Below, one piece after another: positions 3,006 through 55,944 of a DNA stretch of 64,000 bases. Below the pieces are notes generated by a model, which saw nothing but the letters and a program-made list of their open reading frames with translations, had not been told where the DNA came from and searched no databases. This DNA is from an uncultured Gammaproteobacteria bacterium (lineage in GTDB: Bacteria; Patescibacteriota; Microgenomatia; Levybacterales; UBA12049). Location: contig CAZLZN010000004.1 in assembly GCA_964564035.1 (NCBI GenBank), forward strand, positions 10,632 to 74,631. The letters run 5' to 3'. Position 1 is the stretch's first letter, and each line of letters begins with the position of its first letter. The translations under genes were made by a program, and so were the position numbers.

Positions 3006-3030
3006 AATTTAGCTAAAAATATCCTATAAT

Positions 3031-11384: not shown

Positions 11385-11508
11385 CTACTACCTACTATAC
11401 ATCTGATAATTTGCCTTAGATTTAAGTATAAAATACTAATATTATGTAATATACGGGGAGAGGAGGTGAAGCAAATTATTAGGTAATTAAACCTTAATTT
11501 AAAAAATT

Positions 11509-11761: not shown

Positions 11762-11984
11762 GATGATGCTATCCAGATCTGGAACGTACTCTTGACCTGC
11801 CCGGTAATAATCAACGCCTATGTGATAAACAGGACAACCACACAGGCCCCAAAGAGGACGGTGCATTAGAAGTCGGTAGCCCCGGTTCGTCATATGACTA
11901 TCTAAGAGGTTCTAAATTTATTGATCTTCCGGAAGGCGGAAACTACACTGTCCAAAACAAAAGCAACAAATGAGGGAAGCTGTG
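11762..11984 (+). pseudogene. decayed fragment homologous to the lipase-domain region of the 7022..10564 gene
   Basis: The DNA aligns by eye to ~9239..9620 of the large gene, with an internal deletion. For example, ccccggttcgtcatatgactatctaagaggttctaaatttattgatcttccggaaggcggaaactac matches ccccggctcgtcctatgactatctgagggattctaaatttatctatctgccggaaggcgaaaactat. The fragment contains stops and has no start. Confidence 0.6.
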
Positions 11985-12059
11985 AAAACTCATACTGTAA
12001 ACGGCATGTTTTTTGCTGCAGCACAAGCTACCACAGGTGGGATATAGAAAATTCGACCC

Positions 12060-17835: not shown

Positions 17836-18115
17836 TATTTGTCATTTGCCATTGATCCATCCGGCATTTGCTTATAATTTATTTAATAAACTGCGACTGA
17901 AATTGTTTGTGATTTATTGGAAATATTTTACTTACAATCATGCATTAATGCCTGATCTGAATATATATATTATTTCGTGAATAATCTAAGCGCGTTTATA
18001 TACATTAGAATAAGTAAACTAGAGAGATGGGGGGTAATTATATTTGGGGGATATAATCTATGACTTAACCATTCATCGTTAACAAAGCCGCGGAGAGTAT
18101 TGTAGAATTTAAAAT

Positions 18116-22643: not shown

Positions 22644-23370
22644 TCCGACTCCCCTGCCTGAACCAAAGCGGGGAGAGGAGCACGGCAGGAATTACGAAGC
22701 TAATAAAAAAGCAGACAACTGTTCTTTGTGAAAAAAATGTTAAATATAGTCCCATAATATGTTATTGTGAATGTAACGAGTTAATTAAAAAAGGTACATG
22801 AATAACGGGAGAGCATTAATATACGACGCGGTATCATACGAATAATTAATTTAATTTTGAGGCATAAATGATAAAAATATTTAAGAGCTCCCCCGGCTTT
22901 CGTGCCTGCATGACGTCGTAAAAGTATTATTGTGCGACGTGATAAGATTGTTGTCCTCCGGTGCCTACCGGGCTTATTTTAATCGTATTTAAGTACGATG
23001 TATTTCTAATCATAAAAGACGGGAGAATTGCTTCCGAATGACGAATGACTACTGGCCATGACCGAAAAACGTATATTTTTAATTCAAGTACAATTGTTAA
23101 ATTACGGCTTACCTCCGACGTAAGAGCGGTCTATTATGTAGGTAAACACAGCAAGTCTTAAGCGCCTGCCGATTGTCCAGAAATTTATTAAATTTAAAAT
23201 TTTGTATACACATGTATAGAGAAGGCGTTATATTATGCGAAATTTATTTGCTTGCCAATAATGGTCAATATATTGTTTTTGAGTAAATGTTTTGTTTATT
23301 AAATGGTTCGTTGTAGCTCCTAAATATTTGAGGGGCCTTGTAGGGCTTTATATTGACAAGTAGTTTTAGG

Positions 23371-23382
23371 TTGATATATCAA
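23371..23382. repeat. perfect 12-bp palindrome TTGATATATCAA (copy 1), inside a ~38-bp repeat unit
   Basis: TTGATATATCAA is its own reverse complement. The unit ggttgatatatcaatctaaactcgttattttagcttca (23369-23406) recurs as gcttgatatatcaatataaacatgctattttgaggcta (23744-23781). A TTGACA hexamer lies at 23353-23358, so the palindrome overlaps a possible -10. Confidence 0.7.
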
Positions 23383-23745
23383 TCTAAACTCGTTATTTTA
23401 GCTTCATTAATAATATACATCTTATAAATTGGGCTTTCGTATTTTTTTCGAGCGACTCGAAACGCGCTATCAAGAGTACAACGAGATCAATATTTGTTAT
23501 TGTAAGACCATGTTTATTTATAAGATTAAGTATAAAAATATATCAAGATAATATTAAACTAGTTAACCAGTGAGAGTAAAATACATTTTATAGCTTAACA
23601 AGATAATAACTAATGATCAATAGTTTAGCTTGTAATTACGATATAAAGTTATATTTCTGAGGCTAATTTTCGATAATTTATTAGAATATATATTTTAAGC
23701 TTCCTCAATAAGCTATAGGAAAAGTAAATTCTCGTGCAATTTTGC

Positions 23746-23757
23746 TTGATATATCAA
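23746..23757. repeat. perfect 12-bp palindrome TTGATATATCAA (copy 2)
   Basis: An identical 12-mer lies 375 bp from copy 1, with similar flanks (see copy 1). Confidence 0.7.
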
Positions 23758-23947
23758 TATAAACATGCTATTTTGAGGCTAATATTTTCAAATTAATGCT
23801 TTTTTGTTACGGAGAGCAGTATCTGTGTTGTACGAGCTGAGAGCACACGTGGTCTTATAGTATATAGGCTTTAATGCAAACAGGCTTATTTAAGGCTATT
23901 TCTATGCTATTAGCACTGTGAAAAGTAGTAATATAGGCTGTGAAAAG

Positions 23948-23956
23948 TTATCCACA
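23948..23956 (+). promoter_or_regulatory. perfect DnaA-box consensus TTATCCACA, flanked by repeats
   Basis: TTATCCACA at 23948-23956. It is immediately preceded by the direct repeat ctgtgaaaagt (23916-23926 and 23938-23948). It is followed by the tandem 10-mer aactatatca x2 (23958-23977). This is the only perfect box I found, so its function is unproven. Confidence 0.3.
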
Positions 23957-24051
23957 TAACTATATCAAACTATATCATTTATGTTATAGGATCTACTCTA
24001 TTTTGATTATACTACTCTCTTATACTCTCTCCTCTTCCCTGCTCTTTTAGC

Positions 24052-30515: not shown

Positions 30516-30543
30516 ATTTATCATTTGCCATTTGCCATTTGTT
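30516..30543. repeat. heptamer array atttatc atttgcc atttgcc atttgtt, directly upstream of the efp start
   Basis: Four 7-nt units in phase, starting 8 nt from the efp start codon (30508). Confidence 0.7.
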
Positions 30544-30638: not shown

Positions 30639-32156
30639 TTACTTCCTGAGGTAGTTCAGGAGCATGCGTACCCCGAAGCCTGTTGCGCCTTTGGGACTGA
30701 TGTCGCTTGCTTTGGATTGGAATGCTGATCCGGCGATGTCTAAATGAGCCCATGGCACATCTGACACAAACTCTTCTAAAAATAATGCTGCAGTTATCGT
30801 ACCGCCGTATCTGGTGTTTGGAATATTACAAATATCCGCGATGTCGCTTTTGTTCATTTTCTTATATTCTTCAACGAGCGGCAGTTCCCAGATTTTTTCT
30901 CCGGCTTCAAATGCTGAGGATTTGAGTTTGCGTGCCAAATCGGCATTGTTTGAAAATAACGCGCTTATATCCGGCCCCAGCGCAACCATAACTGCCCCGG
31001 TGAGAGTTGCGAGGTCTACAATTTCAGTTGCACCTTTCTGTACTGCATAACTGAGACTGTCAGCCAATGTTACCCTGCCTTCAGCATCGGTATCAAGAAT
31101 TTCAATCGTTTTACCGTTGAGGGCTTTTGCTACGTCGCCGGGAAGCGTCGAGTCTGCAGAGATCAAGTTCGGGGTGGCCGCAATCAAGCCTAACACATCA
31201 TGATCAGGTGCAATCTCCGAGATAACCGAAAATACCCCTAAGACAGCGGCAGCGCCTGCCATGTCCATTTTCATATCGATCATACTGCTTCCTGTTTTGA
31301 CATTTATGCCTCCGGAATCAAACGTAATCCCCTTGCCTACCAGCGCGATTTTCTTTTTTGATTTTTTATTTTCCGGAATATATTCAAGGTGGATAAACTT
31401 AGGCGGGATCTTGCTATGAGCGGCTTTGGCTATAGAAAAGAAAGCTCCCATCCCCATTTTGCGGACCTGTTCTATGTCCATGATTTTGCATATTATATGA
31501 TTTGGATTTTTTTTTGCTATATCAAGCGCAATATTTGCCAGGTACTCCGGAGTCGCTATAGCAGCTTGTTCATTTACCAGATCGCGTGCCAAAACTGCAG
31601 CCTTTGAATATAATTTCGCCTCTTTTATAGCGGATTCCATGACTTTCTTATCACCCTCCCCGCTATATGAGATAATTACCGACGCGAAATCACGTTCATT
31701 TTCGGTTTTTTTGTATTTGGCAAATTCGTATTTTCCGAGCATAAAACCTTCTGTGAACGCATGTATGATAGTTTTTAAATCGAATAACTTTTTGAAATCA
31801 TCGGGTATACTCAATGAAGCGGAATCAATTTTGTTTTTAAAATTTTGTGTAAATTTACCGGCCGCGCGTCTAAGAACATCTGCTGTGAAGTTAGATTTTT
31901 TTCCAAGACCGATCAATACAATACGTGAGTATAGGGTTTGTTTTGAGGTAATAATCGTCAGAATATCGCCTGTTTTTGCTTTGTATTTATCCAGTTCGCA
32001 AATTTTTGAGATCTGAGAATTAAGATCTGTATCAAGTTTTTTGAAATCTTCAAAATATGTAATTGTGCCGTTTTTGTCCGCACTTTCGAATACAAAAAGC
32101 AGAAGAGCGTCTGAGGAAATGTTGTCGATTTTATGGGAAGTTAATTCGAAATTCAT
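30639..32156 (-). CDS. pepA: leucyl aminopeptidase (M17)
   Basis: ..VGKGITFDSGG.., ..DTDAEGRVTLAD.. and ..GATGFGVR... Start set at MNFELTSHKI (32156). The ORF-track extension to 32375 runs antisense through the tRNA-Leu gene. Confidence 0.9.
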   Translation of the reverse strand: MNFELTSHKIDNISSDALLLFVFESADKNGTITYFEDFKKLDTDLNSQISKICELDKYKAKTGDILTIITSKQTLYSRIVLIGLGKKSNFTADVLRRAAGKFTQNFKNKIDSASLSIPDDFKKLFDLKTIIHAFTEGFMLGKYEFAKYKKTENERDFASVIISYSGEGDKKVMESAIKEAKLYSKAAVLARDLVNEQAAIATPEYLANIALDIAKKNPNHIICKIMDIEQVRKMGMGAFFSIAKAAHSKIPPKFIHLEYIPENKKSKKKIALVGKGITFDSGGINVKTGSSMIDMKMDMAGAAAVLGVFSVISEIAPDHDVLGLIAATPNLISADSTLPGDVAKALNGKTIEILDTDAEGRVTLADSLSYAVQKGATEIVDLATLTGAVMVALGPDISALFSNNADLARKLKSSAFEAGEKIWELPLVEEYKKMNKSDIADICNIPNTRYGGTITAALFLEEFVSDVPWAHLDIAGSAFQSKASDISPKGATGFGVRMLLNYLRK

Positions 32157-32231
32157 GGATTTTATTCTAGCATTTTCGGTGCTAAAAATAAAGATAAATG
32201 CTATAATAAATTGATTTTTTAAAAGATTTAG

Positions 32232-32316
32232 GCCGAGGTGGTGGAATGGCAGACACGAAGGTCTCAAAAACCTTTGAGGATTACACCTCGTGGGGGTTCG
32301 ACTCCCCCTCTCGGCA
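32232..32316 (+). tRNA. tRNA-Leu (anticodon CAA), class II with long variable arm
   Basis: Acceptor GCCGAGG/TCTCGGC. D arm GTG-GAATGGCAGA-CAC. Anticodon stem-loop AAGGT-CTCAAAA-ACCTT. Variable arm with GAGG..CCTC stem. T arm GGGGG-TTCGACT-CCCCC. Discriminator A. CCA is not encoded. Confidence 0.9.
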
Positions 32317-32358
32317 CAAATTGGGGAGGAGAAGTTTATCCTGAGCCAGGCCGAAGGA

Positions 32359-32375
32359 ACTCCCCCTCTCGGCAC
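32359..32375 (+). repeat. 17-nt exact duplicate of the tRNA-Leu 3' end (actccccctctcggcac)
   Basis: 32301-32317 (T-arm 3' half plus acceptor 3' strand) is repeated exactly at 32359-32375, abutting the stop codon of the convergent gene. Confidence 0.85.
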
Positions 32376-36371: not shown

Positions 36372-36962
36372 CTAAAGTATTTTTAAACCGAATTTATGTA
36401 ACTCCTTTGCTAGTGCAAATAATGGAAGGCCGACTATATTGAAATAATCACCTTCAATTTTTTCTACAAAAACCGATGCTTTCCCTTGTATCGCATAAGC
36501 GCCTGCTTTGTCCGATAATTTTTCGGACCTGGCGTAACTGTTTATTTCGCGGTCGCGGATTTTTCTAAAATAAACGTTTGTAATTTCCGATTTAGTAATT
36601 TTTTTGTTTGATTTTGAATCTATAACAGTAAAAGCTGTAATGACCTGATGTTTCCTACCGCTTAGTTTTTTCAGCATTATTTTCGCGTCAATAATATTTT
36701 TGGGTTTACCCAGGACTTCGTCCCCTACCGCAATTATCGTGTCGGCTGCAATTATTATAAAGTCGCCAATGTTTTTCCGTTTATAAACTTCGTAAACAGC
36801 GTCTGCTTTCAATTCCGAAAGATTTTCAGCCTGCCCCCTGGGTTTTAGCCGCGGGTTTAAGGTTTCTTTAACGGAACTAGGAAATACAATAAAATTTAAT
36901 CCGATTTGTTTGAGCAAGGATTTACGGCGGGGAGATTTTGATGCGAGGATTATCTGTGTCAT
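36372..36962 (-). CDS. maf: Maf family nucleoside triphosphate pyrophosphatase
   Basis: IILASKSPRRKSLLKQIGL.. ..AADTIIAV.. ..KAGAYAIQG... Confidence 0.9.
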   Translation of the reverse strand: MTQIILASKSPRRKSLLKQIGLNFIVFPSSVKETLNPRLKPRGQAENLSELKADAVYEVYKRKNIGDFIIIAADTIIAVGDEVLGKPKNIIDAKIMLKKLSGRKHQVITAFTVIDSKSNKKITKSEITNVYFRKIRDREINSYARSEKLSDKAGAYAIQGKASVFVEKIEGDYFNIVGLPLFALAKELHKFGLKIL

Positions 36963-37029
36963 ATAAAAAATATTATACTATAAATATATAGATATTTATT
37001 TAATATAAAAATTTATATATACTTATAAT

Positions 37030-37923
37030 ATGTCTGAAATTGGCGTTAAGGGTGAGGGTATAATTGATTCTATTGATAATCAAGGAAATAATCCGGAGCA
37101 AAATCGTTTACACAATGAATTACCTAAAATGATAATTGCAGGTAAGGATGAGGCTAATCCCCATGATTCCCTAGTAGCAATAGCACGTTTTGAGACGAAA
37201 GAACAGGGTGAAAATAATAAACTCCCGGTTCCGGTATATGATGCTAATTCACAAATAAAACCCCCTTATAACGAAGAGGATAGTTACTATAGAAATCCTG
37301 GACTATACGCAATAGCAGTTGAATATACAAGGCAAGCGCATGAATTAGCCGCTAAAACAGATATACCTATAACTGCTTCCGGAGGACTAGGACTTGAATG
37401 GGCTGTAGACCATACGCCAAATGAAATTGGCAGCCATTTTGATGTTCATGGCTTTGGAGCAAAAACGGATTTATCAGATCTTGATAAAATTCTTACGGAC
37501 GGCATCCATTCTGACCGAACTTTATTTACTATGCCTTTTATACGCGGTGAAGAAGGAATGGAGGCGTTTGGCGCAGAATTACCTAAAAGAGAAAGAGGTA
37601 TATATTTAATTTCGGATTATGGTAAGAAAATAACTGAAAAGGACGGCGGAATAAAATATGTAGGCGTAGGTGAGGAGTACGTAAACGCAATTGATGAAAT
37701 GAAAAGGCAGTGGCCCGGAGTTGAGATTGTCCCCTGGCATGATCTACCGAAGGTTTTGACAGAGAGTTATAACTTACATACCGGAGAGAATAAGTCTTAT
37801 CAAGCACTGAACGAAGAAAATAAACCGCGTTATACACCTAAAAAATTTAGAGCTTCAGTTTCCAATGATGATAAACCAGTCCTTATTCCAGGCGCGAGTT
37901 CCGAGGGCAACGAGGTGTGGTAG
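37030..37923 (+). CDS. hypothetical protein (orphan, opposite strand to neighbours)
   Basis: 297-aa ORF with no TM or signal and no motif I recognise. A TATAAT directly abuts the ATG in a very AT-rich upstream region. Confidence 0.55.
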   Translation: MSEIGVKGEGIIDSIDNQGNNPEQNRLHNELPKMIIAGKDEANPHDSLVAIARFETKEQGENNKLPVPVYDANSQIKPPYNEEDSYYRNPGLYAIAVEYTRQAHELAAKTDIPITASGGLGLEWAVDHTPNEIGSHFDVHGFGAKTDLSDLDKILTDGIHSDRTLFTMPFIRGEEGMEAFGAELPKRERGIYLISDYGKKITEKDGGIKYVGVGEEYVNAIDEMKRQWPGVEIVPWHDLPKVLTESYNLHTGENKSYQALNEENKPRYTPKKFRASVSNDDKPVLIPGASSEGNEVW

Positions 37924-37955: not shown

Positions 37956-39062
37956 TTAATTAAAAGAAGTTTTTAGAAGATTTTGCTTATCATACCTTAA
38001 AATTGCTAATTCTATTAACCTGTCGATTAAATCTGAATAATTTAAACCGCTTGCTTCCCAAAGCTTGGGATACATCGAGATATTAGTAAATCCGGGAATG
38101 GGGTTTATTTCATTAATAAATGGTTTGTTTTGTTTGTTAACAAAAAAATCCACGCGTGAAAAACCCTCACAACAAAGTGTTTTAAATGTCTTTATGGCAA
38201 GCTCTTGAATTTGCTTTGTAAGTTTTTGAGGGAGTTTGGCGGGTATTTCTATTGAAGCCCCTTGTTCATCAATATACTTTGCCTCATAGTCATAAAATTC
38301 ATGTGTTGGAATTACTTCTCCAAGAACTGAAGCTTTTGGGTTATCATTTCCCAGAATCCCGCATTCAATTTCGCGGCCGTCTATAAATTCTTCAAATAAT
38401 ATTTTTGTATCATACTGAAAAACGGTATCAACTGCCTTTTTAAAGTCTTCTTTGTTTTTTACTTTGCTTACACCTACTGATGATCCAAGCGTTGGAGGTT
38501 TACAGAAAAACGGCAACCCGAGTTTTTTAACAATTGCGTTGAAATTTATATTGTCTTTTTCATAATACTGAAATACTAAAAAATCAGGAACGGGCAGGCC
38601 TGAATCACGAAGTAATCTTTTGGCGACATCCTTGTCCATTGTAATTGCTGAACCCAATATCGAAGGGCCCACAAAGGGGATATTCAATAGCTTCAATAAT
38701 CCCTGTATTGTCCCGTCTTCGATGTTCGGGCCATGAACCACCGGAAAGATCACGTCTATTTTTCCGATATTGTATTGATCGGAAATTGTTACTAATTGTC
38801 CATTTTTATCGGCGGGGGTAATCGCTATTGGCTTTGCAGAGCTATTAAGAGATATTAATTTTGGATTTTCGGAATTTAAAAGATATCTTGCTTCATCTTG
38901 CAGCATCCACCGTCCGTTTTTATCGATACCGATTAATACAGCTTCATACTTGCTTCTGTCTAGCGAATTTATAACATTTTTCGCCGATTGAAGTGATACT
39001 TCGTGCTCCGCGGATTTGCCGCCGAAAAGAATCGCAACTTTTATTTTTTGATTACCTGCCAT
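37956..39062 (-). CDS. ddl: D-alanine--D-alanine ligase
   Basis: ..VAILFGGKSAEHEVSLQSA.. and an ATP-grasp C-terminal part (..EINPIPGFT..SMYPKLW..). Confidence 0.95.
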   Translation of the reverse strand: MAGNQKIKVAILFGGKSAEHEVSLQSAKNVINSLDRSKYEAVLIGIDKNGRWMLQDEARYLLNSENPKLISLNSSAKPIAITPADKNGQLVTISDQYNIGKIDVIFPVVHGPNIEDGTIQGLLKLLNIPFVGPSILGSAITMDKDVAKRLLRDSGLPVPDFLVFQYYEKDNINFNAIVKKLGLPFFCKPPTLGSSVGVSKVKNKEDFKKAVDTVFQYDTKILFEEFIDGREIECGILGNDNPKASVLGEVIPTHEFYDYEAKYIDEQGASIEIPAKLPQKLTKQIQELAIKTFKTLCCEGFSRVDFFVNKQNKPFINEINPIPGFTNISMYPKLWEASGLNYSDLIDRLIELAILRYDKQNLLKTSFN

Positions 39063-40203
39063 AAATGTAAGTATTGGTGCCGTTTAAATAATTGGAAAAT
39101 CTCTCCATTCCCGCGACCAAGTTCTCTTCCCGTCTGCCAAAACAAATCCTAACATGCCCCTCTCCCCCGGGACCGAAGTCACTGCCGGGGACGACCGCTA
39201 CTTTGGCAGTTTTTAATAGGTCCATGCAGAAAGCTTGTGTGTTGTTTATACCTTTTAGTTTGGGGAAAAAATAGTATGACCCTTTGGGCATAGTATAACT
39301 AATCATGCCGTTGAGGCGGTCCAAATACTCTGCCACCAGCAGTCTGTGTTTTTTATATATTTCTAAATTGTTGGCTAGAATTTCGTTCTGATTTTTGATT
39401 GCCGAAATCGCGGCATATTGGGAAACAACCGGCGCGCAATTGACAATCGAATCATGAACGGGAAGTATTTTTTCAATAACCGAAATATCGGAGTGCAGAT
39501 ATCCGATCCTCCAGCCTGTCAGCGAAAAATCTTTTGAGAAGCTAACAACTCTGATAACATTTTTTTTAAATTCTTTTTCAGTAGCCGGGGTATAAAAATC
39601 CGCGTCGTCGAATATCATATTTTTATATACCTCATCAACTATTAGAAAAATTTTTAATTCCTTGGCGAGTTTTGCCAGTTCGATCAGGGTTTCCCGGGAA
39701 TATACGGATCCGGTCGGATTATTAGGGTTGCAGAGCAAAATTGCGGCTGTTCTTTTGGATATTGTTTTTTTTAGCAATTTTAAATCCAGTTCCCAGTTTC
39801 TTATTTCATTTAGAGGAACAGGCAATGCTTTGCCGCCTGCCATTTTGACGATTCTGAAATATGCAGAATACGCGGGTGTCGGTATGATCACTTCGTTTTT
39901 TGATTTTTTTAAAATACTTAAGAATACAGAACTTAGTCCTTCTATCGCGCCGGCTGTGACCATTATTTCGTCACTTGAGTAATTCATCTTCTCCTCGGAC
40001 AATGACTTACTAATGATATTTCTCAGCTCGATCACTCCTCGGGGGTCGGAATATTTATCTACTAAATTTGAGGAGATCGCGCTAAAAACATCCTCCCGGA
40101 TTATATTTTCGGAGTTCATATACGGGATTCCCTGACTCAAGGAAATTATACCTTCATTATATCTCGCGTAATTTTCCATTTGTTTTATAGCATTCAATTT
40201 CAT
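39052..40203 (-). CDS. class I/II pyridoxal-phosphate-dependent aminotransferase
   Basis: ..NPNNPTG.. and PLP-lysine motif SFSKDFSLTGWRIGY. Overlaps ddl by 11 nt (operon). Confidence 0.9.
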   Translation of the reverse strand: MKLNAIKQMENYARYNEGIISLSQGIPYMNSENIIREDVFSAISSNLVDKYSDPRGVIELRNIISKSLSEEKMNYSSDEIMVTAGAIEGLSSVFLSILKKSKNEVIIPTPAYSAYFRIVKMAGGKALPVPLNEIRNWELDLKLLKKTISKRTAAILLCNPNNPTGSVYSRETLIELAKLAKELKIFLIVDEVYKNMIFDDADFYTPATEKEFKKNVIRVVSFSKDFSLTGWRIGYLHSDISVIEKILPVHDSIVNCAPVVSQYAAISAIKNQNEILANNLEIYKKHRLLVAEYLDRLNGMISYTMPKGSYYFFPKLKGINNTQAFCMDLLKTAKVAVVPGSDFGPGGEGHVRICFGRREENLVAGMERFSNYLNGTNTYIYGR

Positions 40204-40206
40204 TGA

Positions 40207-40325
40207 GAATTAAGAATTAAGAATTAAGAATTAAGAGTTTAGAATTCAGAAGTAAATTTAGAATGTAGAATAATTTTAAACTCTAAATTCTATCTGAATT
40301 TTGAATTATGAATTCTAAATTTGAT
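40207..40325. repeat. 119-bp array with strict 7-nt periodicity (gaattaa x4, then ~13 degenerate heptads); the halves are partly inverted
   Basis: In one phase from 40207: gaattaa x4, gagttta, gaattca, gaagtaa, atttaga, atgtaga, ataattt, taaactc, taaattc, tatctga, attttga, attatga, attctaa, atttgat. It starts 4 nt from the aminotransferase start codon. agagtttagaatt can pair with aattttaaactct. Confidence 0.8.
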
Positions 40326-40336
40326 TATAAAATGTA

Positions 40337-40352
40337 TTTGAATATATTCAAA
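40337..40352. promoter_or_regulatory. perfect 16-bp palindrome TTTGAATATATTCAAA in a divergent promoter region
   Basis: Self-complementary 16-mer ~110 nt upstream of the TrmB-like regulator gene (40461). An operator-like role is inferred only. Confidence 0.4.
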
Positions 40353-40460
40353 AATTTTATAATTTTATAAGCGCTCCAGCTTTGAATCAGCCTCACATAA
40401 ATATTCGTCCAATTGTGGTAGATTTTGTAATGAAATAAGATTATAATACGTCCAAGATCT

Positions 40461-41213
40461 ATGGACAAAATTATCAGAGACGCGCTGACTGATCTGGGGT
40501 GTTCGGATAAAGAGATAAAGTTTTTCATCACAAATTACCGTTCAGGCGCGCTTACAATCAATGAAATAGCTAAAATAGCAAAGATCGAGAGATCTACCGC
40601 CTATTTGATAGCCCAAAGCCTCATTAGCAAGGGCCTGATTATTGAGGACTTGAAACAATATAAAAAATCACTCGTGACTATTGAGCCGAAAACACTTCTT
40701 CGAATGCTGTCCGCGAAACAAAGACAAATCGGGAGACATGAACTGACGCTTAAGGAAAATCTAAGCGCGCTTGAGTCCCTTTATTTGACATCAGAATACA
40801 GACCGACGGTCAAAACTTATGACGGAAATAACGGTTTACTCGCGATTTGGAAAGATATTTTGTCAAAATCCCAGGAGGTTCTGCTTTGGACAAATCAGGA
40901 TACCGAGAGTAATTTTTTTACGAAGAATTATCATCATCTTTTTATCAAAGAAAGGTTTAAAAAGAATATACCTGTTCGCGTACTGGCTGTTAATAATTCA
41001 AAAGGACAGGAGCTTATCAAAAACGATAGTGAATCGCTTAGAAAAACAAAAATTCTCCCGGATGGCGTAGTATTCAGCGCGGAAACATATATTTACGGCG
41101 ATAAGGTCGCTATTCTGGACTATAATAAAGACATAATTGGCGTAATTATTAAAAGCGATCAGATTGCCGGATCGCAGAGGGCAATATTCGAGATGAACTG
41201 GGGAGTTTTATAA
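40461..41213 (+). CDS. TrmB-like helix-turn-helix transcriptional regulator
   Basis: The N-terminal winged-HTH (..LGCSDKEIKFFITNYRSGALTINEIAKIAKIERSTAYLIAQSLISKGLI..) resembles the TrmB family. The C-terminal domain is unassigned. Confidence 0.7.
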   Translation: MDKIIRDALTDLGCSDKEIKFFITNYRSGALTINEIAKIAKIERSTAYLIAQSLISKGLIIEDLKQYKKSLVTIEPKTLLRMLSAKQRQIGRHELTLKENLSALESLYLTSEYRPTVKTYDGNNGLLAIWKDILSKSQEVLLWTNQDTESNFFTKNYHHLFIKERFKKNIPVRVLAVNNSKGQELIKNDSESLRKTKILPDGVVFSAETYIYGDKVAILDYNKDIIGVIIKSDQIAGSQRAIFEMNWGVL

Positions 41214-42536
41214 TGACCGTCTGCGTTTTTTGTCCCAAAAATCTCCTCTTCTCGGCAATAAATCCGCATCCTTTTTTTCATTTAATAAACTTTCAATTAT
41301 ATCTTCCAAATACATAGACGCGGAGGCCTTGAATAAAATCCTCTCCCCTCCCCTGATGTTTTCTTTTATAAAATCTAATACTTCTTCGCGATTCGAAAAT
41401 TTAATCACTTGATCATTTGACCCTTTTTCATTTTTAATTTTTGAATTATTATTTTGATCTTTGATCTTTGATCTTTGATCTAATATTTGGAAGGTATATT
41501 CCCCTACTCTCTTCCCTACCAAAATAATCCGCTCCAAATCCATCTCACTCAACAACCTGCCCAGCTTCTCATGCTCTTCACGCTCCTTCTCTCCAAGCTC
41601 GAGCATGTCGCCCAGTACTACCCATTTTTTATCTCCGGGCATTTTGGAGAACATGTCCAGAACTGCTTTCATGGAAGACAGATTGGCGTTGTAGGAGCTG
41701 TCGATAAGCAGAGTGTTTTTTATGCCTTGTAAAATATTGCTTCTGCCGGGCGGCATTTTTAACCGGCTAAATTTCTTATCAAAAGGTAATTTCAAATACC
41801 CGCACACCTCGCGGCACATGACGATCGAATAGAATATCTCTTCGGGTAATAACTGACTAAATTTATATTCTTCACCTTTTATTTCAAATATCGTGCTGTT
41901 TGTGGTCAAATTATATTTGTTTAAATAAATCTCTTTTGATACCTCTATGACTTGATTCCTGCTTCGCACTACATGCTTCTTCATGAACTCCGAATCAGCG
42001 TTGATCACAGACAAACTTTGACAGCGTTCAAGAAAATGTCCGAAGTCATGCGCAATCGCTTCATCTACTGATTTAAAACCTAAATGCTTGATTTTTAAAG
42101 CCTGTTCAAAATTCTGGCTGTGCGTTCTGCCGACACTTGTCCAAAGCACGACTTCGGGTTTGAGAAATTCAGCCAGGAATTTACCTTCTCCCCATCTGTC
42201 GGTATCTGCTTCTGCTACGAATATTTTTTCATGAGGGGGGTTTTTAAATGAGTTAATAGGCGCTGTTAAGAACAATTTCAGCCATTCTACATAGCTGAAG
42301 GTTTCTCTATGCAGATCCAGGATGAAAAACGGTATTCCGTACGCGCTGTTCGCGTGATGTGAGTAAACAGCCTTGTCGCCCAGCTGGGATTCAAGCATAT
42401 GCAGGAGAGTTGTTTTTCCGCTAGAACCGGTTACGACAACTACTCTAGGACTCCATCTGCGAAGCTTTATCCCCGCCCAGAATCGGAAATATTTTGCGAT
42501 AAATAAATAGAGTGATTTTTTGAGTTTGTTTATCAT
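41208..42536 (-). CDS. murF: Mur ligase family protein (MurF-like)
   Basis: P-loop VVVVTGSSGKTT, Mur ligase central and C-terminal patterns (..IDSSYNAN.., ..VLGDMLELG..). Contains the low-complexity insert DQRSKIKDQNNNSKIKNEKGS. Confidence 0.8.
   Translation of the reverse strand: MINKLKKSLYLFIAKYFRFWAGIKLRRWSPRVVVVTGSSGKTTLLHMLESQLGDKAVYSHHANSAYGIPFFILDLHRETFSYVEWLKLFLTAPINSFKNPPHEKIFVAEADTDRWGEGKFLAEFLKPEVVLWTSVGRTHSQNFEQALKIKHLGFKSVDEAIAHDFGHFLERCQSLSVINADSEFMKKHVVRSRNQVIEVSKEIYLNKYNLTTNSTIFEIKGEEYKFSQLLPEEIFYSIVMCREVCGYLKLPFDKKFSRLKMPPGRSNILQGIKNTLLIDSSYNANLSSMKAVLDMFSKMPGDKKWVVLGDMLELGEKEREEHEKLGRLLSEMDLERIILVGKRVGEYTFQILDQRSKIKDQNNNSKIKNEKGSNDQVIKFSNREEVLDFIKENIRGGERILFKASASMYLEDIIESLLNEKKDADLLPRRGDFWDKKRRRSL
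41424..41481. repeat. 7-nt-periodic array inside the murF-like CDS (ends with ttgatct x4)
   Basis: In phase: tttttca tttttaa tttttga attatta ttttgat ctttgat ctttgat ctttgat. On the coding strand this encodes the Lys/Asn/Gln-rich insert. Confidence 0.8.
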
Positions 42537-46920: not shown

Positions 46921-46976
46921 TAAAAATCAAAACTCAAAGTGCAAAATGCAAAACTACAAATCAAAATTTAAAAACT
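46921..46976. repeat. heptamer array (taaaaat caaaact caaagtg caaaatg caaaact acaaatc aaaattt aaaaact) forming the dnaB 5' leader
   Basis: Eight 7-nt units in phase, beginning 4 nt from the dnaB start codon. No SD sequence is present. Confidence 0.8.
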
Positions 46977-48900: not shown

Positions 48901-49689
48901 TTAGGATCCGTGATTAATATAAGCAGTTTTTATAATCTCAGCAATCTCTTCAGGATCATCGGATAACTTAATCAAATTATAGTCATCCTCATTAATTTTC
49001 CCGGTCGCGAGGACTTTGTGCTTGATCCAATCGAGAAGTCCCGACCAGTAATCCTTGCCGAATAAAATAAGCGGGAAATTGTGAATTTTTTTTGTCTCAA
49101 TAAGAGTCAGTGACTCGAAAAGTTCATCCAGCGTACCGAAGCCGCCGGGGAAAATAACAAAAGCTTCGGCGTATTTTACGAACATCATTTTGCGGACAAA
49201 AAAATAATGGAATTTTATAGAAATGTCGAGATACTTATTTTCGGATTGCTCAAAGGGTAAATCAATATTACAGCCTATCGAAACACCTCCTGCTTCGCGG
49301 GCACCTTTGTTCGCGGCCTCCATGGCTCCGGGACCGCCGCCGGTAATGATACCAAATCCTGCCTGCGCGACCAGTTTGGCAGTGCGTGTAATTTTGTCAT
49401 ACATCGGATCTTCGCGGTCAAGTCTGGCGGAGCCAAAAAAGGTAACTGAGGGAGGAATGCTTGACAGAGCCCCATACCCGCTTACCATTTCGCTCATGAC
49501 ACGCAGTACCCGCCAGGGATCCGTCTCGGTAAAGTCCATATGCAGGAGTTTTTCTCGTTCATCTATTTCGTGATCAAGTTGTTCTCTAAATTCGGGACTA
49601 TCAATGTGGACCAAGGGTTTTTTTGGACGCCTGAGTGATTTTTCGTCTTCGGTGAGGTGTCTTCTGTCTGTTCGTCTAAACGAGGGCAT
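48901..49689 (-). CDS. LOG family (TIGR00730) nucleotide phosphoribohydrolase
   Basis: ..ITGGGPGAMEAANKGA.. and ..PGGFGTLDELFE.. motifs. Confidence 0.85.
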   Translation of the reverse strand: MPSFRRTDRRHLTEDEKSLRRPKKPLVHIDSPEFREQLDHEIDEREKLLHMDFTETDPWRVLRVMSEMVSGYGALSSIPPSVTFFGSARLDREDPMYDKITRTAKLVAQAGFGIITGGGPGAMEAANKGAREAGGVSIGCNIDLPFEQSENKYLDISIKFHYFFVRKMMFVKYAEAFVIFPGGFGTLDELFESLTLIETKKIHNFPLILFGKDYWSGLLDWIKHKVLATGKINEDDYNLIKLSDDPEEIAEIIKTAYINHGS

Positions 49690-50402: not shown

Positions 50403-51512
50403 ATGAACAGATATTTGAAGCAAAGAATATTTGAGCTTAGAAAACTAATGAATACCCAGGCGACCGGCGCTGTGCTAATCTCGTCGGTTCCCGACATAAT
50501 TTATTTGACTGATTTTTCCTATTTCTCAAACGCTGAGCGGGAGGGGTATTTATTTATTACAAAAAACGCGCAGTATATTTTGACCGACGGGCGGTATTCT
50601 CATGCAGTACGCGAAAATGTAAAAGACTTTGAACTGATCGAGATTAGCACGAAGAATAGATTTAATGACATAATAAAACGTCTATGTGACGATCATAAAA
50701 TAGAAAAGCTTGGGATTGACGAGCAAAGCCTAAGCGTTTTTGAGCATAAAAAACTTAATGGAATAAATACTCAGCATTTCACAATAAGTTCCTTAAGGGC
50801 AATTAAGGATGTTGCAGAAATTGAATGTATAAAAAAAGCATGCGAAATCGGAGACAGGGCTTTTTCGAAAATAGTAAATCATCTAAAGACCGGAATTACA
50901 GAGAAAGAAATTGAGATAAGTCTGGAAAGAATAATCAAAGAAGATATTGCGGAGTTTTCTTTTCCGGCAATTGTCGCGTTTGGTGAAAATTCTGCTGTTC
51001 CTCATCACAAAACAGGCAACCGGAAGCTGAAAATGAATGAGTTTGTGCTAATTGATTTTGGTGTTAAGTATAAAAATTATTGTTCGGACATGACAAGAAC
51101 GGTGTTCTACGGACGGGCAAGCGAGGAGCAAAAAAAGGTATATCAAACTGTTTTAGAAGCCCAACAAGAAGCAATTCAAATTTTCAATTTTCAATTTTCA
51201 ATTTTCAATAAAAAAAATAAATTACTAAAAGCATCAAAACTAGATAATGCTGCAAGAAGTTATATAATAGAACATGATTACTCCACAATCCCCCACTCAC
51301 TCGGGCACGGTATCGGGCTTGAAGTTCATGAATCGCCATCGTTGTCTCCGAATTCTAAAGACGAATTGAGGAACGGGATGGTTTTTTCGATCGAGCCGGG
51401 GATATATTTTCCCGGTAAATATGGAGTCAGGATTGAGGACTTGTACGCGGTGCAAGACGATAAACTAGTAAGCTTGACGAGGTCCGACAAGGAACTCATG
51501 AGCTTTATGTAA
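50403..51512 (+). CDS. pepP: Xaa-Pro aminopeptidase (M24B)
   Basis: Metal ligands are in the expected order: ..LIDFG..YCSDMTRT.., ..HSLGHGIGLEVHE.., ..FSIEPG.. and ..VRIEDL... Contains the odd insert IFNFQFSIFNKKNK. Confidence 0.9.
   Translation: MNRYLKQRIFELRKLMNTQATGAVLISSVPDIIYLTDFSYFSNAEREGYLFITKNAQYILTDGRYSHAVRENVKDFELIEISTKNRFNDIIKRLCDDHKIEKLGIDEQSLSVFEHKKLNGINTQHFTISSLRAIKDVAEIECIKKACEIGDRAFSKIVNHLKTGITEKEIEISLERIIKEDIAEFSFPAIVAFGENSAVPHHKTGNRKLKMNEFVLIDFGVKYKNYCSDMTRTVFYGRASEEQKKVYQTVLEAQQEAIQIFNFQFSIFNKKNKLLKASKLDNAARSYIIEHDYSTIPHSLGHGIGLEVHESPSLSPNSKDELRNGMVFSIEPGIYFPGKYGVRIEDLYAVQDDKLVSLTRSDKELMSFM
51174..51208. repeat. heptamer array inside pepP (attcaaa + ttttcaa x4)
   Basis: Exact ttttcaa x4 at 51181-51208, followed by an A8 run. 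Translated as FNFQFSIFN. Confidence 0.85.
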
Positions 51513-54868: not shown

Positions 54869-54933
54869 CATACCTCTAATCTATTCTAGAACTTTATAGA
54901 TCTGCTATGAAAAATAACCTTTCTCTTATAATA

Positions 54934-55056
54934 AAAAATCAAAATGCAAAATTAAAAACGCAAAATGCTAAATAACAACGTAATAGATAAAATAATTTTA
55001 TTTTTTTATATATAAACTGTTATTTTGCATTTTGCGCTTTACGCTTTTAAATTTTT
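54934..55056. repeat. two heptamer arrays in inverted orientation, forming a 19-bp-stem hairpin between rpmE and prfA
   Basis: A-rich heptads at 54934-54975 (aaaaatc aaaatgc aaaatta aaaacgc aaaatgc taaataa). T-rich heptads at 55021-55055 (tattttg cattttg cgcttta cgctttt aaatttt). Arm cgcaaaatgctaaataaca (54959-54977) is complementary to tgttattttgcattttgcg (55018-55036) at 18 of 19 positions. Confidence 0.8.
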
Positions 55057-55944
55057 ATGGCCGATTATAGATTAGTACAATTACAGGAGCTTGAACAGAA
55101 GATCGAAGAGACGAAAGTACTTCTCTCCGATCCAACCCTCGCGGAGCTAACACAGCAAGAGCTTGCTGAATTGGAGGCCCAAAAGAAAACGATCGAAGAG
55201 AGTCTGCAGGCATCCAAGGAGAAAAACGAAGATAATTTTGATGAGCGCAATATAATACTTGAAGTCAAGGGAGCGGCCGGAGGAGATGAGGCCAAGCTTT
55301 GGGCTGAAGAGCTTGTAAGAATGTATTCCAGATTTTCACAAAGAAGAGGCTTTGTGGTTGAGCGGCTCGACGAATATGTCATCAAACTTAGCGGCAGAAA
55401 CGCGTTCGGCGAGCTAAAATACGAGGCGGGAGTTCATAGAGTCCAGAGAATTCCTGCGACTGAAAAACGAGGAAGAGTACATACGTCGACGGCGACTGTT
55501 TCGATACTACCCGAACTTGAAGATATCGATCTGCATATTGCTCCGGAGGATATTGATTTTGAGGCATTCAGAAGCGGCGGACACGGCGGCCAGAATGTTA
55601 ATAAGGTTTCGACGGCTGTGAGGATCGTACATAAGCCGAGCGGGATTGTCGTTACAGCATCGGCTGAGCGGTCTCAGGGACAAAACCGGGAAAATGCAAT
55701 GAAATTGCTTCGCGCAAAACTTTGGGAGATAGAAGTCGAAAAACAGCAGACACAACTCGCCTCGCTAAGATCAACACAGGTCGGACGCGGAATGAGAGCC
55801 GAGAAGATAAAAACTTACAATTTCCCTCAAGATAGATTGACCGATCACAGAATTAACAGATCATGGAAAAATCTGCCGGAAATACTGGATGGAGATATAC
55901 CGAACGAGCATCCTCAGGACGAAGCGATAATAAAGACAGATTAA
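55057..55944 (+). CDS. prfA: peptide chain release factor 1 (compact, 295 aa)
   Basis: PAT tripeptide ([14 protein letters not shown]) and GGQ motif ([21 protein letters not shown]). The N-terminal domain is shorter than in E. coli RF1. Confidence 0.9.

What the first reader, a model, noticed from the sequence alone, without database searches (positions are those of the whole stretch)
40207..40325. 119-bp tract with strict 7-nt periodicity; type example of a dispersed heptamer-array family
- Starting 4 nt from the aminotransferase start codon, 17 consecutive heptads stay in one phase. The series runs gaattaa x4, gagttta, gaattca, gaagtaa, atttaga, atgtaga, and so on to attctaa, atttgat.
- The two halves are partly inverted (agagtttagaatt / aattttaaactct), so the tract can form a long hairpin or cruciform.
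- Similar in-phase heptamer arrays occur at least at 17837-17871, 30516-30543, 41424-41481, 46921-46976, 51174-51208, 54934-54975 and 55021-55055.
- Several arrays have exactly four perfect units (gaattaa, ttgatct, ttttcaa).
- Unit sequences differ, but they share a form of 4-5 A or T followed by 2-3 variable bases.
- A 7-nt period matches neither the codon period nor the helical period.
- The arrays occur in both orientations relative to genes, which points to a DNA-level process or a DNA-binding ligand rather than an mRNA signal.
- I do not recognise this as a described repeat family.
Basis: seen in the sequence. Interest (0 to 1): 0.6.

Follow-up and report, generated by a model that had tools for sequence, protein, structure and literature searches.

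The report
Seven-base microsatellite filling a gene leader
The tract is a real seven-base tandem repeat that makes up the predicted untranslated leader of an aminotransferase gene in a Saccharibacteria (TM7) genome; it is a local example of the already documented excess of heptanucleotide repeats in some bacteria, so it is a new host for a known and still unexplained kind of repeat.

Summary
- 40206-40236 is a perfect (GAATTAA)4.4.
- The whole 119-nt tract has 68% identity at lag 7, against 35% when shuffled.
- Period 7 is the only over-represented unit size in the window: 3 perfect arrays versus 0 at periods 5, 6 and 8-15, and 7-11 imperfect arrays versus 0.3-2.3 expected.

"Strict, one phase" is overstated. 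There are four breaks and one register shift.

The tract runs from a promoter conserved in relatives (TTGAAT-16-TATAAT, minus strand) to the aminotransferase start codon, so it is the inferred ~114-nt 5' leader. Close relatives carry heptamer arrays at the same sites with different unit numbers and sequences. One example is a clean two-unit difference upstream of efp. This fits replication slippage in unconstrained spacer DNA. The genome has almost no Shine-Dalgarno sites, so arrays can run up to start codons.

Two of the listed arrays lie inside genes, where they encode lineage-specific loop insertions.

Heptamer excess, four-unit arrays, inverted pairs and variation at orthologous sites are already described for Xanthomonas, Nostoc and Beggiatoaceae. 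I rate this a new member of a known kind. I did not demonstrate copy-number polymorphism or any function.

The parts
40206..40236 (-). Perfect heptamer run: (GAATTAA)4.4 on the plus strand, (UUAAUUC)4 in aminotransferase mRNA sense. It ends 3 nt before the start codon.
   Evidence: 31-nt perfect period-7 run. Identical in independent contigs L001, L003, L004, L007, L009, L010, L106 and L108-L112 as far as those contigs reach.
40207..40255 (-). Array A: seven GAATTAA-type units (four perfect, then GAGTTTA, GAATTCA, GAAGTAA).
   Evidence: TRF reports 40202-40255, period 7, 7.7 copies, 85% matches. Lag-7 identity 0.86.
40256..40294 (-). Degenerate middle part. It is still 7-periodic (lag-7 identity 0.59) but in a shifted register. 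It carries the arm 40272-40291 that is complementary to 40227-40246.
40295..40321 (-). Array B: TGAATTT, TGAATTA, TGAATTC, TAAATT (about 4 units). It lies at the promoter-proximal end of the leader.
   Evidence: TRF period 7, 4.0 copies. Score 11. Lag-7 identity 0.75.
40324..40351 (-). Inferred aminotransferase promoter, TTGAAT-16-TATAAT.
   Evidence: Consensus scan, 10 of 12 matches. The same arrangement is conserved in relatives L005 (TTGATA-16-TAAAAT) and L006 (TTGATA-16-TACAAT), read. The transcription start is not measured.
39052..40203 (-). Class I/II PLP aminotransferase gene served by the leader. It lies upstream of ddl in a cell-wall gene cluster.
   Evidence: Pfam PF00155, E = 2e-57. 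The N-terminus MKLNAIKQME is conserved in 35 homologues, so the ATG at 40203 is the true start.
30516..30543 (-). Heptamer array in the efp leader: GGCAAAT x3 in mRNA sense, ending about 8-14 nt before the ATG.
   Evidence: The window has exactly two more units than relative L005.
41424..41481 (-). Heptamer arrays inside the MurF-like ligase gene. GATCAAA x4 in sense encodes ..DQRSKIKDQ.., part of a 15-residue insertion specific to this genus.
   Evidence: Invariant in 7 same-species contigs.
46921..46976 (-). Degenerate heptamer array (CAAAANN on the plus strand) in the dnaB leader. It ends 4 nt from the ATG.
   Evidence: Relative L005 has a different heptamer (nCTTTCn) at the same site, and the window carries a 21-nt (3-unit) insertion. 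L114 and L116 also have heptamer arrays upstream of dnaB.
51174..51209 (+). Perfect (TTTTCAA)4.4 inside the M24 peptidase gene. It encodes ..IFNFQFSIFN.. in a variable loop that is 3 residues longer than in orthologues.
54926..55056 (+). prfA (RF1) leader: TATAAT at 54926-54931, then (CAAAATG)n at 54934-54975 and the inverted (CATTTTG/CGCTTTA)n at 55021-55055. It ends 1 nt before the ATG and is predicted to form a long hairpin.
   Evidence: RNA fold z = -2.4, with 3 of 200 shuffles folding as well. RF1 assignment.
17837..17871 (.). Marginal 7-periodic stretch after the stop codon of the 17074-17835 gene.
   Evidence: Lag-7 identity 0.54. Not found by TRF or by my scans.

Best explanation
The tract is an AT-rich heptanucleotide microsatellite with decayed copies in both orientations. 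It occupies the whole inferred 5' untranslated leader of the aminotransferase mRNA in a Saccharibacteria (TM7) genome.

**How it arises (inferred from comparisons between relatives)**
- Slipped-strand mispairing during replication adds or removes whole 7-nt units.
- Point mutation then erodes the units.
- This lineage, like several other bacterial lineages, favours 7-nt units over other sizes.

**Why it sits there (inferred)**
- The genome is compact, about 11% non-coding in this window.
- It almost entirely lacks Shine-Dalgarno sites.
- The stretch between the -10 box and the start codon is therefore nearly the only DNA free to vary, so arrays grow there and run right up to start codons.
- Stop-free units can also persist as insertions in surface loops of proteins.

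**Effect on the cell**
- Probably small. The array changes leader length (about 114 nt here against about 64 and 51 nt in relatives).
- It can create an AU-rich hairpin that may modulate translation or mRNA stability.

**Shown:** periodicity, specificity for period 7, array turnover at orthologous sites, and location.
**Inferred:** the slippage mechanism, the transcription start, and near-neutrality.
For: **Period-7 excess**
- It is specific against shuffles and against other periods.

**Unit-level differences at orthologous sites**
- efp leader: the window has 2 more units than L005.
- Aminotransferase leader: TTAATTC x4 in the window, CTAATTC/TTGATAC/TTGATTC/ATGATTC/TTAATTC in L005, and TTGATTC x2.5 in L006.
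- dnaB leader: a different unit in L005, and a 21-nt indel.
- MurF array: degenerate in L005, homogenised to four perfect units in the window at equal length.

**Flanking constraint**
- The promoter and the TrmB-proximal part of the intergenic region are conserved while the array part is not.
- Only 3 of 54 genes have a Shine-Dalgarno-like motif, and many have a TATAAT-like box 0-15 nt from the ATG.

**Location**
- 6 of 11 arrays lie in the 10.8% of the window that is non-coding (P = 5e-4).
- Across other genomes, array pairs abut stop codons (20) as often as start codons (16). They fill spacers rather than mark start codons.
- Coding arrays are lineage-specific loop insertions.

**Phylogenetic spread**
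- The enrichment is strongest in this genus (window, and L005 with 4 arrays against 1.0 expected). It is weak or absent in more distant Saccharibacteria (L114, L116, L118, L070).
- Dense heptamer arrays also occur in unrelated control loci from Verrucomicrobiia and Syntrophorhabdaceae.

**Literature**
- Heptamer over-representation and the polymerase-slippage hypothesis are reported in PMC4692102, citing Mrazek et al. 2007.
Against: - No copy-number polymorphism was seen. There were 0 indels in 113 kb of same-species contigs, and the efp, dnaB and MurF arrays are invariant in 6-9 samples.
- Slippage therefore shows only between species, not within this near-clonal population.
- Why 7 nt rather than 6 or 8 is not explained by anything I tested.
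- Heptamer arrays persist upstream of dnaB in four taxa despite complete unit turnover.
- Inverted pairs have a consistent purine-first polarity, 21 of 23.
- These last two points hint at selection or a structured mechanism beyond neutral slippage.
Confidence: 0.68

Rival explanations
1. Functional RNA element. Mutually inverted heptamer arrays in the leader fold into a long AU-rich hairpin whose 3' arm abuts the start codon. The hairpin controls translation initiation, mRNA processing (for example by RNase III) or transcription termination. Unit number tunes the output, as in the Haemophilus influenzae hmw1A (ATCTTTC)n leader.
For: - The aminotransferase leader folds better than shuffles (z = -2.2, 4 of 200).
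- The prfA leader has the same layout of -10 box, array, inverted array, ATG (z = -2.4, 3 of 200).
- L176 (GC 0.66) carries a perfect (GAATTAA)6, 50 nt, (TTAATTC)6 hairpin ending 7 nt before a GTG start.
- Inverted pairs outnumber direct pairs 22 to 8, and the purine-rich arm is 5' in 21 of 23.
- Xanthomonas has 70-75 such pairs per genome, and pair type is preserved between species (PMC4692102).
- The hmw1A precedent is described in PMC12721329.
Against: - The shorter leaders of relatives L005 and L006 do not fold better than shuffles (z = -0.6 and -0.4).
- The dnaB leader is less structured than 199 of 200 shuffles, and the efp leader is average.
- Hairpin z-scores are modest, and GAATTC-like units are partly self-complementary.
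- Coding and single arrays exist without partners.
- No Rfam family matches.
Confidence: 0.2
2. Phase-variable (contingency) locus. The perfect four-unit arrays change copy number at high frequency and switch or grade expression of the adjacent genes. For the two coding arrays, the switch would work by frameshifting MurF and the M24 peptidase.
For: - k=31 assemblies from at least 10 runs end exactly inside the two 31-nt perfect arrays (40206-40236 and 51179-51209).
- The same assemblies read through the 29-nt array and all imperfect arrays.
- The M24 product is never found intact in those assemblies.
- The single mismatch between L002 and the window in 3.9 kb falls inside the array.
Against: - The contig breaks have a mundane explanation. 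(GAATTAA)5 occurs in more than 120 unrelated metagenome contigs, and AATTTTC arrays occur in others. The fully periodic 31-mer is therefore shared with other genomes and makes the assembly graph branch.
- No allele with a different unit number was recovered.
- Four units is short for a high switching rate.
- The genes are housekeeping (aminotransferase, efp, dnaB, prfA, murF), not surface or restriction genes.
Confidence: 0.08
3. Binding-site array for a DNA-binding protein. The candidates are the divergently encoded TrmB-like regulator or a nucleoid protein, as with the TTTTGAT heptads bound by ToxR and H-NS in the Vibrio cholerae ctxAB promoter.
For: - The array lies in a divergent intergenic region next to a regulator gene.
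- Units such as TTTTGAT and CTTTGAT occur at 41424-41481 and in the dnaB leader.
- The ctxAB precedent comes from the abstract of bioRxiv 10.1101/2021.05.14.444153.
Against: - Unit sequences differ between loci and change at orthologous sites.
- The array lies downstream of the conserved -10 box, not upstream of the -35.
- The conserved candidate operator (two CGTCCAA motifs) lies in the other, TrmB-proximal half of the spacer.
- Some arrays are inside genes.
Confidence: 0.04

Closest known systems
Over-represented intergenic heptameric simple sequence repeats of bacteria (Mrazek, Guo and Shah 2007; GGGAATC in Xanthomonas and GGGGA(C/T)T in Nostoc, PMC4692102)
   Same: - Tandem 7-nt units, with period 7 singled out among unit sizes 4-11.
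- Most arrays have about four units.
- Mostly intergenic and within 0-50 bp of gene ends.
- Frequent inverted (convergent) pairs.
- Present at orthologous sites in close relatives, with different lengths and sequences.
- Function unknown; polymerase slippage has been proposed.
   Different: - Units here are AT-rich and cannot form G-quadruplexes.
- Each locus has its own unit instead of one dominant genome-wide unit.
- The host is a small-genome, roughly 40% GC Saccharibacterium, whereas the original survey linked long-unit repeats to large, GC-rich genomes.
TAACTGA direct repeats of marine Beggiatoaceae, some Cyanobacteria and Bacteroidetes (MacGregor 2015, PMC4679880)
   Same: - Heptamer arrays of 2-6 units ending a few nucleotides upstream of start codons.
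- They occur in intergenic regions that lack Shine-Dalgarno sites and upstream of essential genes.
- Some copies lie inside genes.
   Different: - That system is one specific unit in one orientation, which suggests a sequence-specific RNA-binding factor.
- Here there are many units in both orientations.
- No TAACTGA arrays occur in the window.
Haemophilus influenzae hmw1A/hmw2A (ATCTTTC)n repeat in the 5' UTR (PMC12721329)
   Same: A heptamer repeat is transcribed as part of a 5' leader and forms one arm of a long hairpin.
   Different: - hmw carries at least 11 units, has proven copy-number variation and RNase III processing, and controls an adhesin.
- Here there are four units, no observed variation, and housekeeping genes.
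TTTTGAT heptad repeats of the Vibrio cholerae ctxAB promoter
   Same: An AT-rich 7-nt tandem unit of very similar sequence (TTTTGAT and CTTTGAT occur at 41424-41481).
   Different: - The ctx repeats lie upstream of the promoter and recruit ToxR and H-NS.
- The array here lies downstream of the -10 box or inside genes.
Cyanobacterial STRR heptanucleotide repeats (Calothrix/Anabaena; cited as reference 39 in PMC4692102 and known to me from Mazel et al. 1990)
   Same: Tandem heptamers scattered through intergenic DNA, with unknown function.
   Different: - STRR has fixed GC-containing units (CCCCAGT, TTGGTCA, CAACAGT, from my own knowledge).
- Copy numbers are high.
- It is restricted to heterocystous cyanobacteria.

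Membership tests
Bacterial heptameric simple sequence repeats (Mrazek 2007; Rehm 2015) | Head-to-tail tandem copies of a 7-nt unit | tested here: met
   TRF and my own run scans. Lag-7 identity is 0.68 over the tract.
Bacterial heptameric simple sequence repeats (Mrazek 2007; Rehm 2015) | Over-representation specific to unit size 7 relative to other long units and to shuffled sequence | tested here: met
   3 perfect arrays versus 0 at periods 5, 6 and 8-15. Imperfect arrays: 7 versus 0.33 and 11 versus 2.3. Only 64 kb plus a 21-kb relative were tested, not the whole genome.
Bacterial heptameric simple sequence repeats (Mrazek 2007; Rehm 2015) | Mainly intergenic, close to gene boundaries | tested here: met
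   6 of 11 arrays lie in the 10.8% non-coding DNA (P = 5e-4). Four end within 14 nt of a start codon.
Bacterial heptameric simple sequence repeats (Mrazek 2007; Rehm 2015) | Same site in close relatives but with different length or sequence | tested here: met
   Aminotransferase, efp, dnaB and MurF sites compared between the window and L005/L006.
Bacterial heptameric simple sequence repeats (Mrazek 2007; Rehm 2015) | Frequent convergent inverted pairs | tested here: met
   Window pairs at 40207-40255/40272-40321 and 54934-54975/55021-55055. Across all loci, 22 inverted versus 8 direct pairs, with the purine-rich arm first in 21 of 23.
TAACTGA repeat system (Beggiatoaceae) | Unit TAACTGA in forward orientation upstream of start codons | tested here: not met
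   No TAACTGA array in the window. One 1-mismatch dimer was found, against 0.55 expected by chance.
Phase-variable contingency locus | Copy-number polymorphism within or between populations of one strain | tested here: inconclusive
   No indels in 113 kb from about 30 same-species contigs. The two 31-nt arrays are never spanned by k=31 contigs except in the interrupted L002 allele. The breaks can be explained by periodic k-mers shared with other genomes. Reads were not available.
Phase-variable contingency locus | Linked to surface, restriction-modification or host-interaction genes | tested here: not met
   The adjacent genes are an aminotransferase, efp, dnaB, prfA, a murF-like ligase and an M24 peptidase.
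hmw-type 5' UTR repeat hairpin (H. influenzae) | Repeat transcribed in the 5' UTR and paired into a long hairpin cleaved by RNase III | tested here: inconclusive
   The promoter position implies transcription. The hairpin is predicted with z = -2.2 but is not conserved in L005 or L006. RNase III cleavage is not testable here.
MITE / REP-type dispersed element | Copies share a conserved core and terminal inverted repeats, with target-site duplications | tested here: not met
   No conserved flank or core is shared between arrays in the window. Similarity between arrays is limited to unit-level resemblance, such as a 19-mer shared by the window dnaB leader and the L005 MurF array.
Known RNA families (Rfam 15) | Match at or above a family's gathering score | tested here: not met
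   Only tRNA-Leu passes in the window. The tract and the L176 hairpin give only sub-threshold generic microRNA-precursor matches.

The most novel reading that the evidence does not exclude
Inverted pairs of heptamer arrays may be a distinct class of intergenic hairpin element found across phyla. On either strand the purine-rich arm is 5' and the pyrimidine/U-rich arm is 3'. The pairs fill spacers tightly between stop and start codons.

The same units, for example (GAATTAA)n...(TTAATTC)n, recur from 18% to 69% GC genomes. Under this reading the pairs act as terminator, mRNA-stability or translation-control hairpins and grow by arm-by-arm slippage. The aminotransferase and prfA leaders of this Saccharibacterium would be AT-rich members of the class.
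Probability: 0.15. Interest if true: 0.65.

Novelty: new member of a known kind. Interest (0 to 1): 0.33.

Why it matters
- It extends the unexplained bacterial bias towards 7-nt tandem repeats to the Candidate Phyla Radiation, and to an AT-rich, small, Shine-Dalgarno-poor genome. G-quadruplex explanations cannot apply there.
- It shows that whole 5' leaders and protein loop insertions can be built from such repeats and turn over between close relatives.
- The side observations suggest a structured mechanism or function that could be tested. These are the same unit recurring in genomes of very different GC content, and a consistent purine-first polarity of inverted pairs.
- For annotation, it warns that k=31 assemblies break systematically at these arrays.

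Tried and rejected
- **Single-protein scan of GTDB genomes** for the aminotransferase found nothing.
- **Indel-length spectrum from a 20.9-kb window/L005 alignment** (81.5% identity) was too noisy to test for an excess of multiples of 7.
- **Contig breaks as evidence of heterogeneity.** I first read the breaks at 40206-40236 and 51179-51209 as copy-number heterogeneity. I withdrew this after finding (GAATTAA)5 in more than 120 unrelated contigs.
- **Flank-anchored search for alleles with 2-6 units** in JGI metagenomes found nothing.
- **Test for a start codon consistently following (TTAATTC)n.** 13 of 67 arrays in one orientation versus 8 of 68 in the other. This is not convincing.
- **Array pairs and gene ends.** Pairs abut stop codons as often as start codons.
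- **Shared 19-mer** between the window dnaB leader and the L005 MurF array. I judged it compatible with chance, given the shared CAAAANN unit form.
- **HutP-like (UAG-N4)n and Shine-Dalgarno or anti-Shine-Dalgarno readings** were considered and dropped for lack of any consistent motif.
- **Mrazek et al. 2007** could not be read directly. It is cited through PMC4692102.
Full report
**1. The observation**

The plus strand at 40207-40234 reads GAATTAA four times. The perfect period-7 run is 40206-40236, 31 nt.
- Tandem Repeats Finder reports 40202-40255 (period 7, 7.7 copies, 85% matches) and 40295-40322 (period 7, 4 copies).
Shuffles give 0.35 (none of 2000 reach 0.68), and lags 2-6 and 8-10 give 0.25-0.39.
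- The tract is not one strict phase. Successive heptads share 7, 7, 7, 5, 5, 5, 1, 6, 2, 3, 6, 3, 4, 6, 5 and 4 bases. The GAAT motif moves from register 0 to register 5 near 40256.
- It is better described as several sub-arrays, the right-hand ones partly in inverse orientation.
- The inverted halves are real. The best arms are 40227-40246 and 40272-40291, 20 nt at 90% complementarity. Folding beats shuffles only modestly: DNA z = -1.8, RNA z = -2.2.

**2. More than chance, and specific to period 7**

- Perfect tandem runs of at least three copies number 3 at period 7: 40206-40236, 41453-41481 and 51179-51209. There are none at periods 5, 6 and 8-15, and none in 50 dinucleotide shuffles.
- Imperfect arrays number 7 at period 7, against 0.33 in shuffles that preserve local composition. 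Other non-harmonic periods sit near expectation; period 14 (5 arrays) is the second harmonic of the period-7 arrays.
- With a laxer threshold the count is 11 against 2.3.
  - 30516-30543, 41424-41481 and 51174-51208 are strong.
  - 46921-46976, 54934-54975 and 55021-55055 are weaker.
  - 17837-17871 is marginal.
- Independent assemblies from more than ten sequencing runs carry the same arrays, so they are not an artefact of one assembly.

**3. Organism and setting**

- The aminotransferase's named homologues are from Candidatus Saccharimonadales/Saccharibacteria. The closest relatives (90%, 89% and 85% identity) are unnamed metagenome contigs.
- The neighbourhood is a cell-wall cluster: aminotransferase, ddl, a MurF-like ligase and a divergent TrmB-family regulator.
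- The N-terminus MKLNAIKQME is conserved in 35 homologues, so the ATG at 40203 is the true start. The array ends 3 nt from it.
- Only 3 of 54 genes in the window have a Shine-Dalgarno-like motif. Many have a TATAAT-like box 0-15 nt from the ATG, which suggests leaderless or very short-leader mRNAs.

**4. What the tract is**

- A promoter-like site, TTGAAT-16-TATAAT, lies on the minus strand at 40351-40324.
- The same arrangement is present in the 90% relative L005 (TTGATA-16-TAAAAT) and in the 85% relative L006 (TTGATA-16-TACAAT), as read.
- The half of the spacer next to the TrmB gene is also conserved. It includes two CGTCCAA motifs.
- The sequence between the -10 box and the ATG is not conserved, apart from its 7-nt periodicity.
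The leader is about 114 nt here, about 64 nt in L005 and about 51 nt in L006. The transcription start is inferred, not measured.

**5. Evidence for gain and loss of whole units**

- Aminotransferase leader:
  - window: TTAATTC x4;
  - L005: CTAATTC TTGATAC TTGATTC ATGATTC TTAATTC;
  - L006: TTGATTC x2.5.
- efp leader: the window has exactly two more GGCAAAT units than L005.
- dnaB leader: L005 has a different heptamer (nCTTTCn) in a 46-nt spacer, against 153 nt in the window. The alignment shows a 21-nt, three-unit insertion.
- More distant relatives L114 and L116 also carry unrelated heptamer arrays upstream of dnaB.
- MurF-like ligase:
  - The array region is a 15-residue insertion shared by the window and L005 and absent from L114 and L116.
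  - L005 has degenerate units, and the window has four perfect GATCAAA units at the same total length.
- M24 peptidase: the array encodes IFNFQFSIFN in a variable loop that is 3 residues longer than in orthologues.
- The period-7 excess is strongest in this genus and weak or absent in Saccharibacteria at 42-58% aminotransferase identity.

**6. Polymorphism was not demonstrated**

- About 30 same-species contigs are 99.2-100% identical to the window and show no indels in 113 kb.
- The efp, dnaB and MurF arrays are invariant.
- All k=31 contigs stop inside the two 31-nt perfect arrays. No intact M24 product is on record.
- One contig (L002) reads through an allele that is interrupted by a single substitution. 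That substitution is the only mismatch in 3.9 kb.
- I first took the breaks as a sign of heterogeneity. However, (GAATTAA)5 occurs in more than 120 unrelated metagenome contigs, and AATTTTC arrays occur in others.
- The fully periodic 31-mer is therefore shared with other genomes, which is enough to make the assembly graph branch.
- A flank-anchored search for alleles with 2-6 units found nothing. Only read-level data can settle this.

**7. Why arrays abut start codons**

- Six of 11 arrays lie in the 10.8% non-coding DNA (P = 5e-4). Four end within 14 nt of a start codon.
- Across other genomes, inverted array pairs abut stop codons (20) as often as start codons (16), usually within 0-25 nt.
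- (TTAATTC)n is not consistently followed by a start codon.
- The simplest reading is that arrays expand into whatever spacer DNA is unconstrained. In a genome without Shine-Dalgarno sites, nothing stops them from reaching the ATG.

**8. Structure and rival readings**

- Two leaders have the layout of -10 box, array, inverted array, ATG, and fold better than shuffles:
  - aminotransferase leader, z = -2.2;
  - prfA leader at 54926-55056, z = -2.4.
- The dnaB leader is unusually unstructured and the efp leader is average. The short leaders of L005 and L006 show no significant fold.
- A regulatory hairpin like that of H. influenzae hmw1A (PMC12721329) therefore remains possible, at about 0.2, but is not required.
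- A sequence-specific DNA-binding ligand is unlikely, because units differ between loci and turn over at orthologous sites.
- No Rfam family matches. No conserved mobile-element core links the arrays.

**9. Comparison with what is known**

- Over-representation of heptameric repeats among bacterial simple sequence repeats was reported in 2007. It was attributed tentatively to the length of DNA held by the polymerase active site (PMC4692102, citing Mrazek et al.).
- For Xanthomonas GGGAATC and Nostoc GGGGA(C/T)T repeats, that paper describes:
  - a mode of four units;
  - 70-75 convergent inverted pairs per Xanthomonas genome;
  - most upstream arrays within 0-50 bp of the gene;
  - 83% presence at orthologous sites, with different lengths.
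- TAACTGA repeats in Beggiatoaceae end a few nucleotides before start codons in regions without Shine-Dalgarno sites (PMC4679880).
- All defining features of the general class were met here.
- The differences are the AT-rich units that cannot form quadruplexes, the different unit at each locus, and the host lineage.
- My literature search found no report for Saccharibacteria.

**10. Side observations beyond the window**

- Control loci fetched by chance showed dense heptamer arrays in a Verrucomicrobiia contig and a Syntrophorhabdaceae contig, mostly as inverted pairs.
- Across all loci held, neighbouring arrays of related unit are inverted 22 times and direct 8 times.
- The purine-rich arm is 5' in 21 of 23 inverted pairs (P = 7e-5). 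Excluding GAATTAA-type units, the split is 12 to 2 (P = 0.013).
- The AT-rich unit GAATTAA recurs in contigs of 18-69% GC. One example, L176, is a perfect 42-bp-arm hairpin filling an intercistronic spacer.
- These points support a more structured, cross-phylum phenomenon. I give that reading about 0.15.

**11. Verdict**

This is a real, non-random heptanucleotide microsatellite that forms a gene leader. It is one of several such arrays in a genus-level lineage of Saccharibacteria. It is best explained by slippage in unconstrained DNA (confidence about 0.68). It is a new member of a known kind. Its function, its copy-number dynamics and the reason for the 7-nt unit remain open.

Noticed in passing
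window, all gene starts (for example 3031, 14513-15508, 36372-36962, 37030, 43574, 48901-49689): The genome is almost devoid of Shine-Dalgarno motifs: 3 of 54 genes have one. Many genes have a TATAAT-like box 0-15 nt upstream of the ATG, which suggests widespread leaderless or very short-leader mRNAs.
   Followed up: partly
L073 (Syntrophorhabdaceae CAXXUO010000003.1) 2965-3169, 5191-5343, 11523-11725, 16504-16868, 19311-19461; L072 (Verrucomicrobiia DASZPR010000003.1) 2468-2558, 8223-8398: Unrelated control loci carry dense heptamer arrays: 11 in 21 kb and 7 in 12.5 kb. They are arranged as inverted pairs that fill intergenic spacers, several of them between convergent genes.
   Followed up: partly
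L125-L204; best example L176 1627-1749: Exact (GAATTAA)5 occurs in more than 120 metagenome contigs with GC from 0.18 to 0.69. Arrays reach more than 100 nt. In L176 (GC 0.66), (GAATTAA)6, 50 nt and (TTAATTC)6 fill the spacer between a stop codon and a GTG start. These contigs also hold about 80 further heptamer arrays of other units, some recurring between contigs (AATTTTC, AGTGAGG, GGTTTAA).
   Followed up: partly
all loci held, inverted heptamer-array pairs (list): Inverted pairs have a consistent polarity. The purine-rich array is 5' of the pyrimidine-rich array in 21 of 23 pairs (P = 7e-5), including both pairs in the window.
   Followed up: partly
window 40206-40236 and 51179-51209; contigs L001, L003, L004, L007, L009, L010, L106, L108-L112, L119-L123: Logan k=31 contigs from many runs end exactly inside the two 31-nt perfect arrays. 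One 11,001-nt contig starts at the first array and, by coordinate arithmetic, ends in the second. The 29-nt array at 41453-41481 is read through in 6 of 7 contigs (L112 ends at its edge). This is a systematic assembly break at heptamer arrays.
   Followed up: yes
window 32232-32317 (+): tRNA-Leu(CAA) sits between the TldD/PmbA-like gene and the M17 peptidase. The mechanical ORF 30639-32375 over-extends across it. Gene calls on sister contigs start the peptidase downstream, giving 505 aa.
   Followed up: partly
window 55057-55944 (+): The release factor is RF1-like but only 295 aa. It matches the RF1 models from about position 46-55 onwards, so the usual N-terminal ~50 residues are missing. The upstream 190 nt is array-filled leader, not coding sequence.
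   Followed up: no
window 40405-40455: Two copies of CGTCCAA (TTGGACG on the other strand) are about 34 nt apart next to the TrmB-family gene start. They are conserved in L005 and L006 and overlap an ATTATAAT box. This is a candidate operator and promoter for the regulator.
   Followed up: no
L108-L110 1002-2192, versus window 41208-42536: In three same-species contigs the MurF-like gene is called as 396 aa instead of 442 aa. These contigs differ from the window by 0-25 substitutions, so the N-terminal part differs or is interrupted in some strains.
   Followed up: no
window 36970-37031: An AT-rich tandem repeat (period about 25, 2.4 copies, overlapping a (TA)n-like run) lies in the divergent spacer between maf and an unannotated 297-aa gene.
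   Followed up: no
window 9472-9618 / 11838-11985 and 10705-11657: Diverged direct repeats are present: 124 nt at 78% identity and 33 nt at 91%. There are also three copies of a 101-nt segment (64-74%) spanning small ORFs at 10644-10925 and 11118-11384. This suggests a small paralogous gene family next to the 1180-aa protein.
   Followed up: no
window 23365-23399 and 23740-23774: Two 35-nt copies (83% identity) each contain the palindrome TTGATATATCAA. They lie in the 1.4-kb stretch 22644-24051 that has no ORF of 80 aa or more.
   Followed up: no
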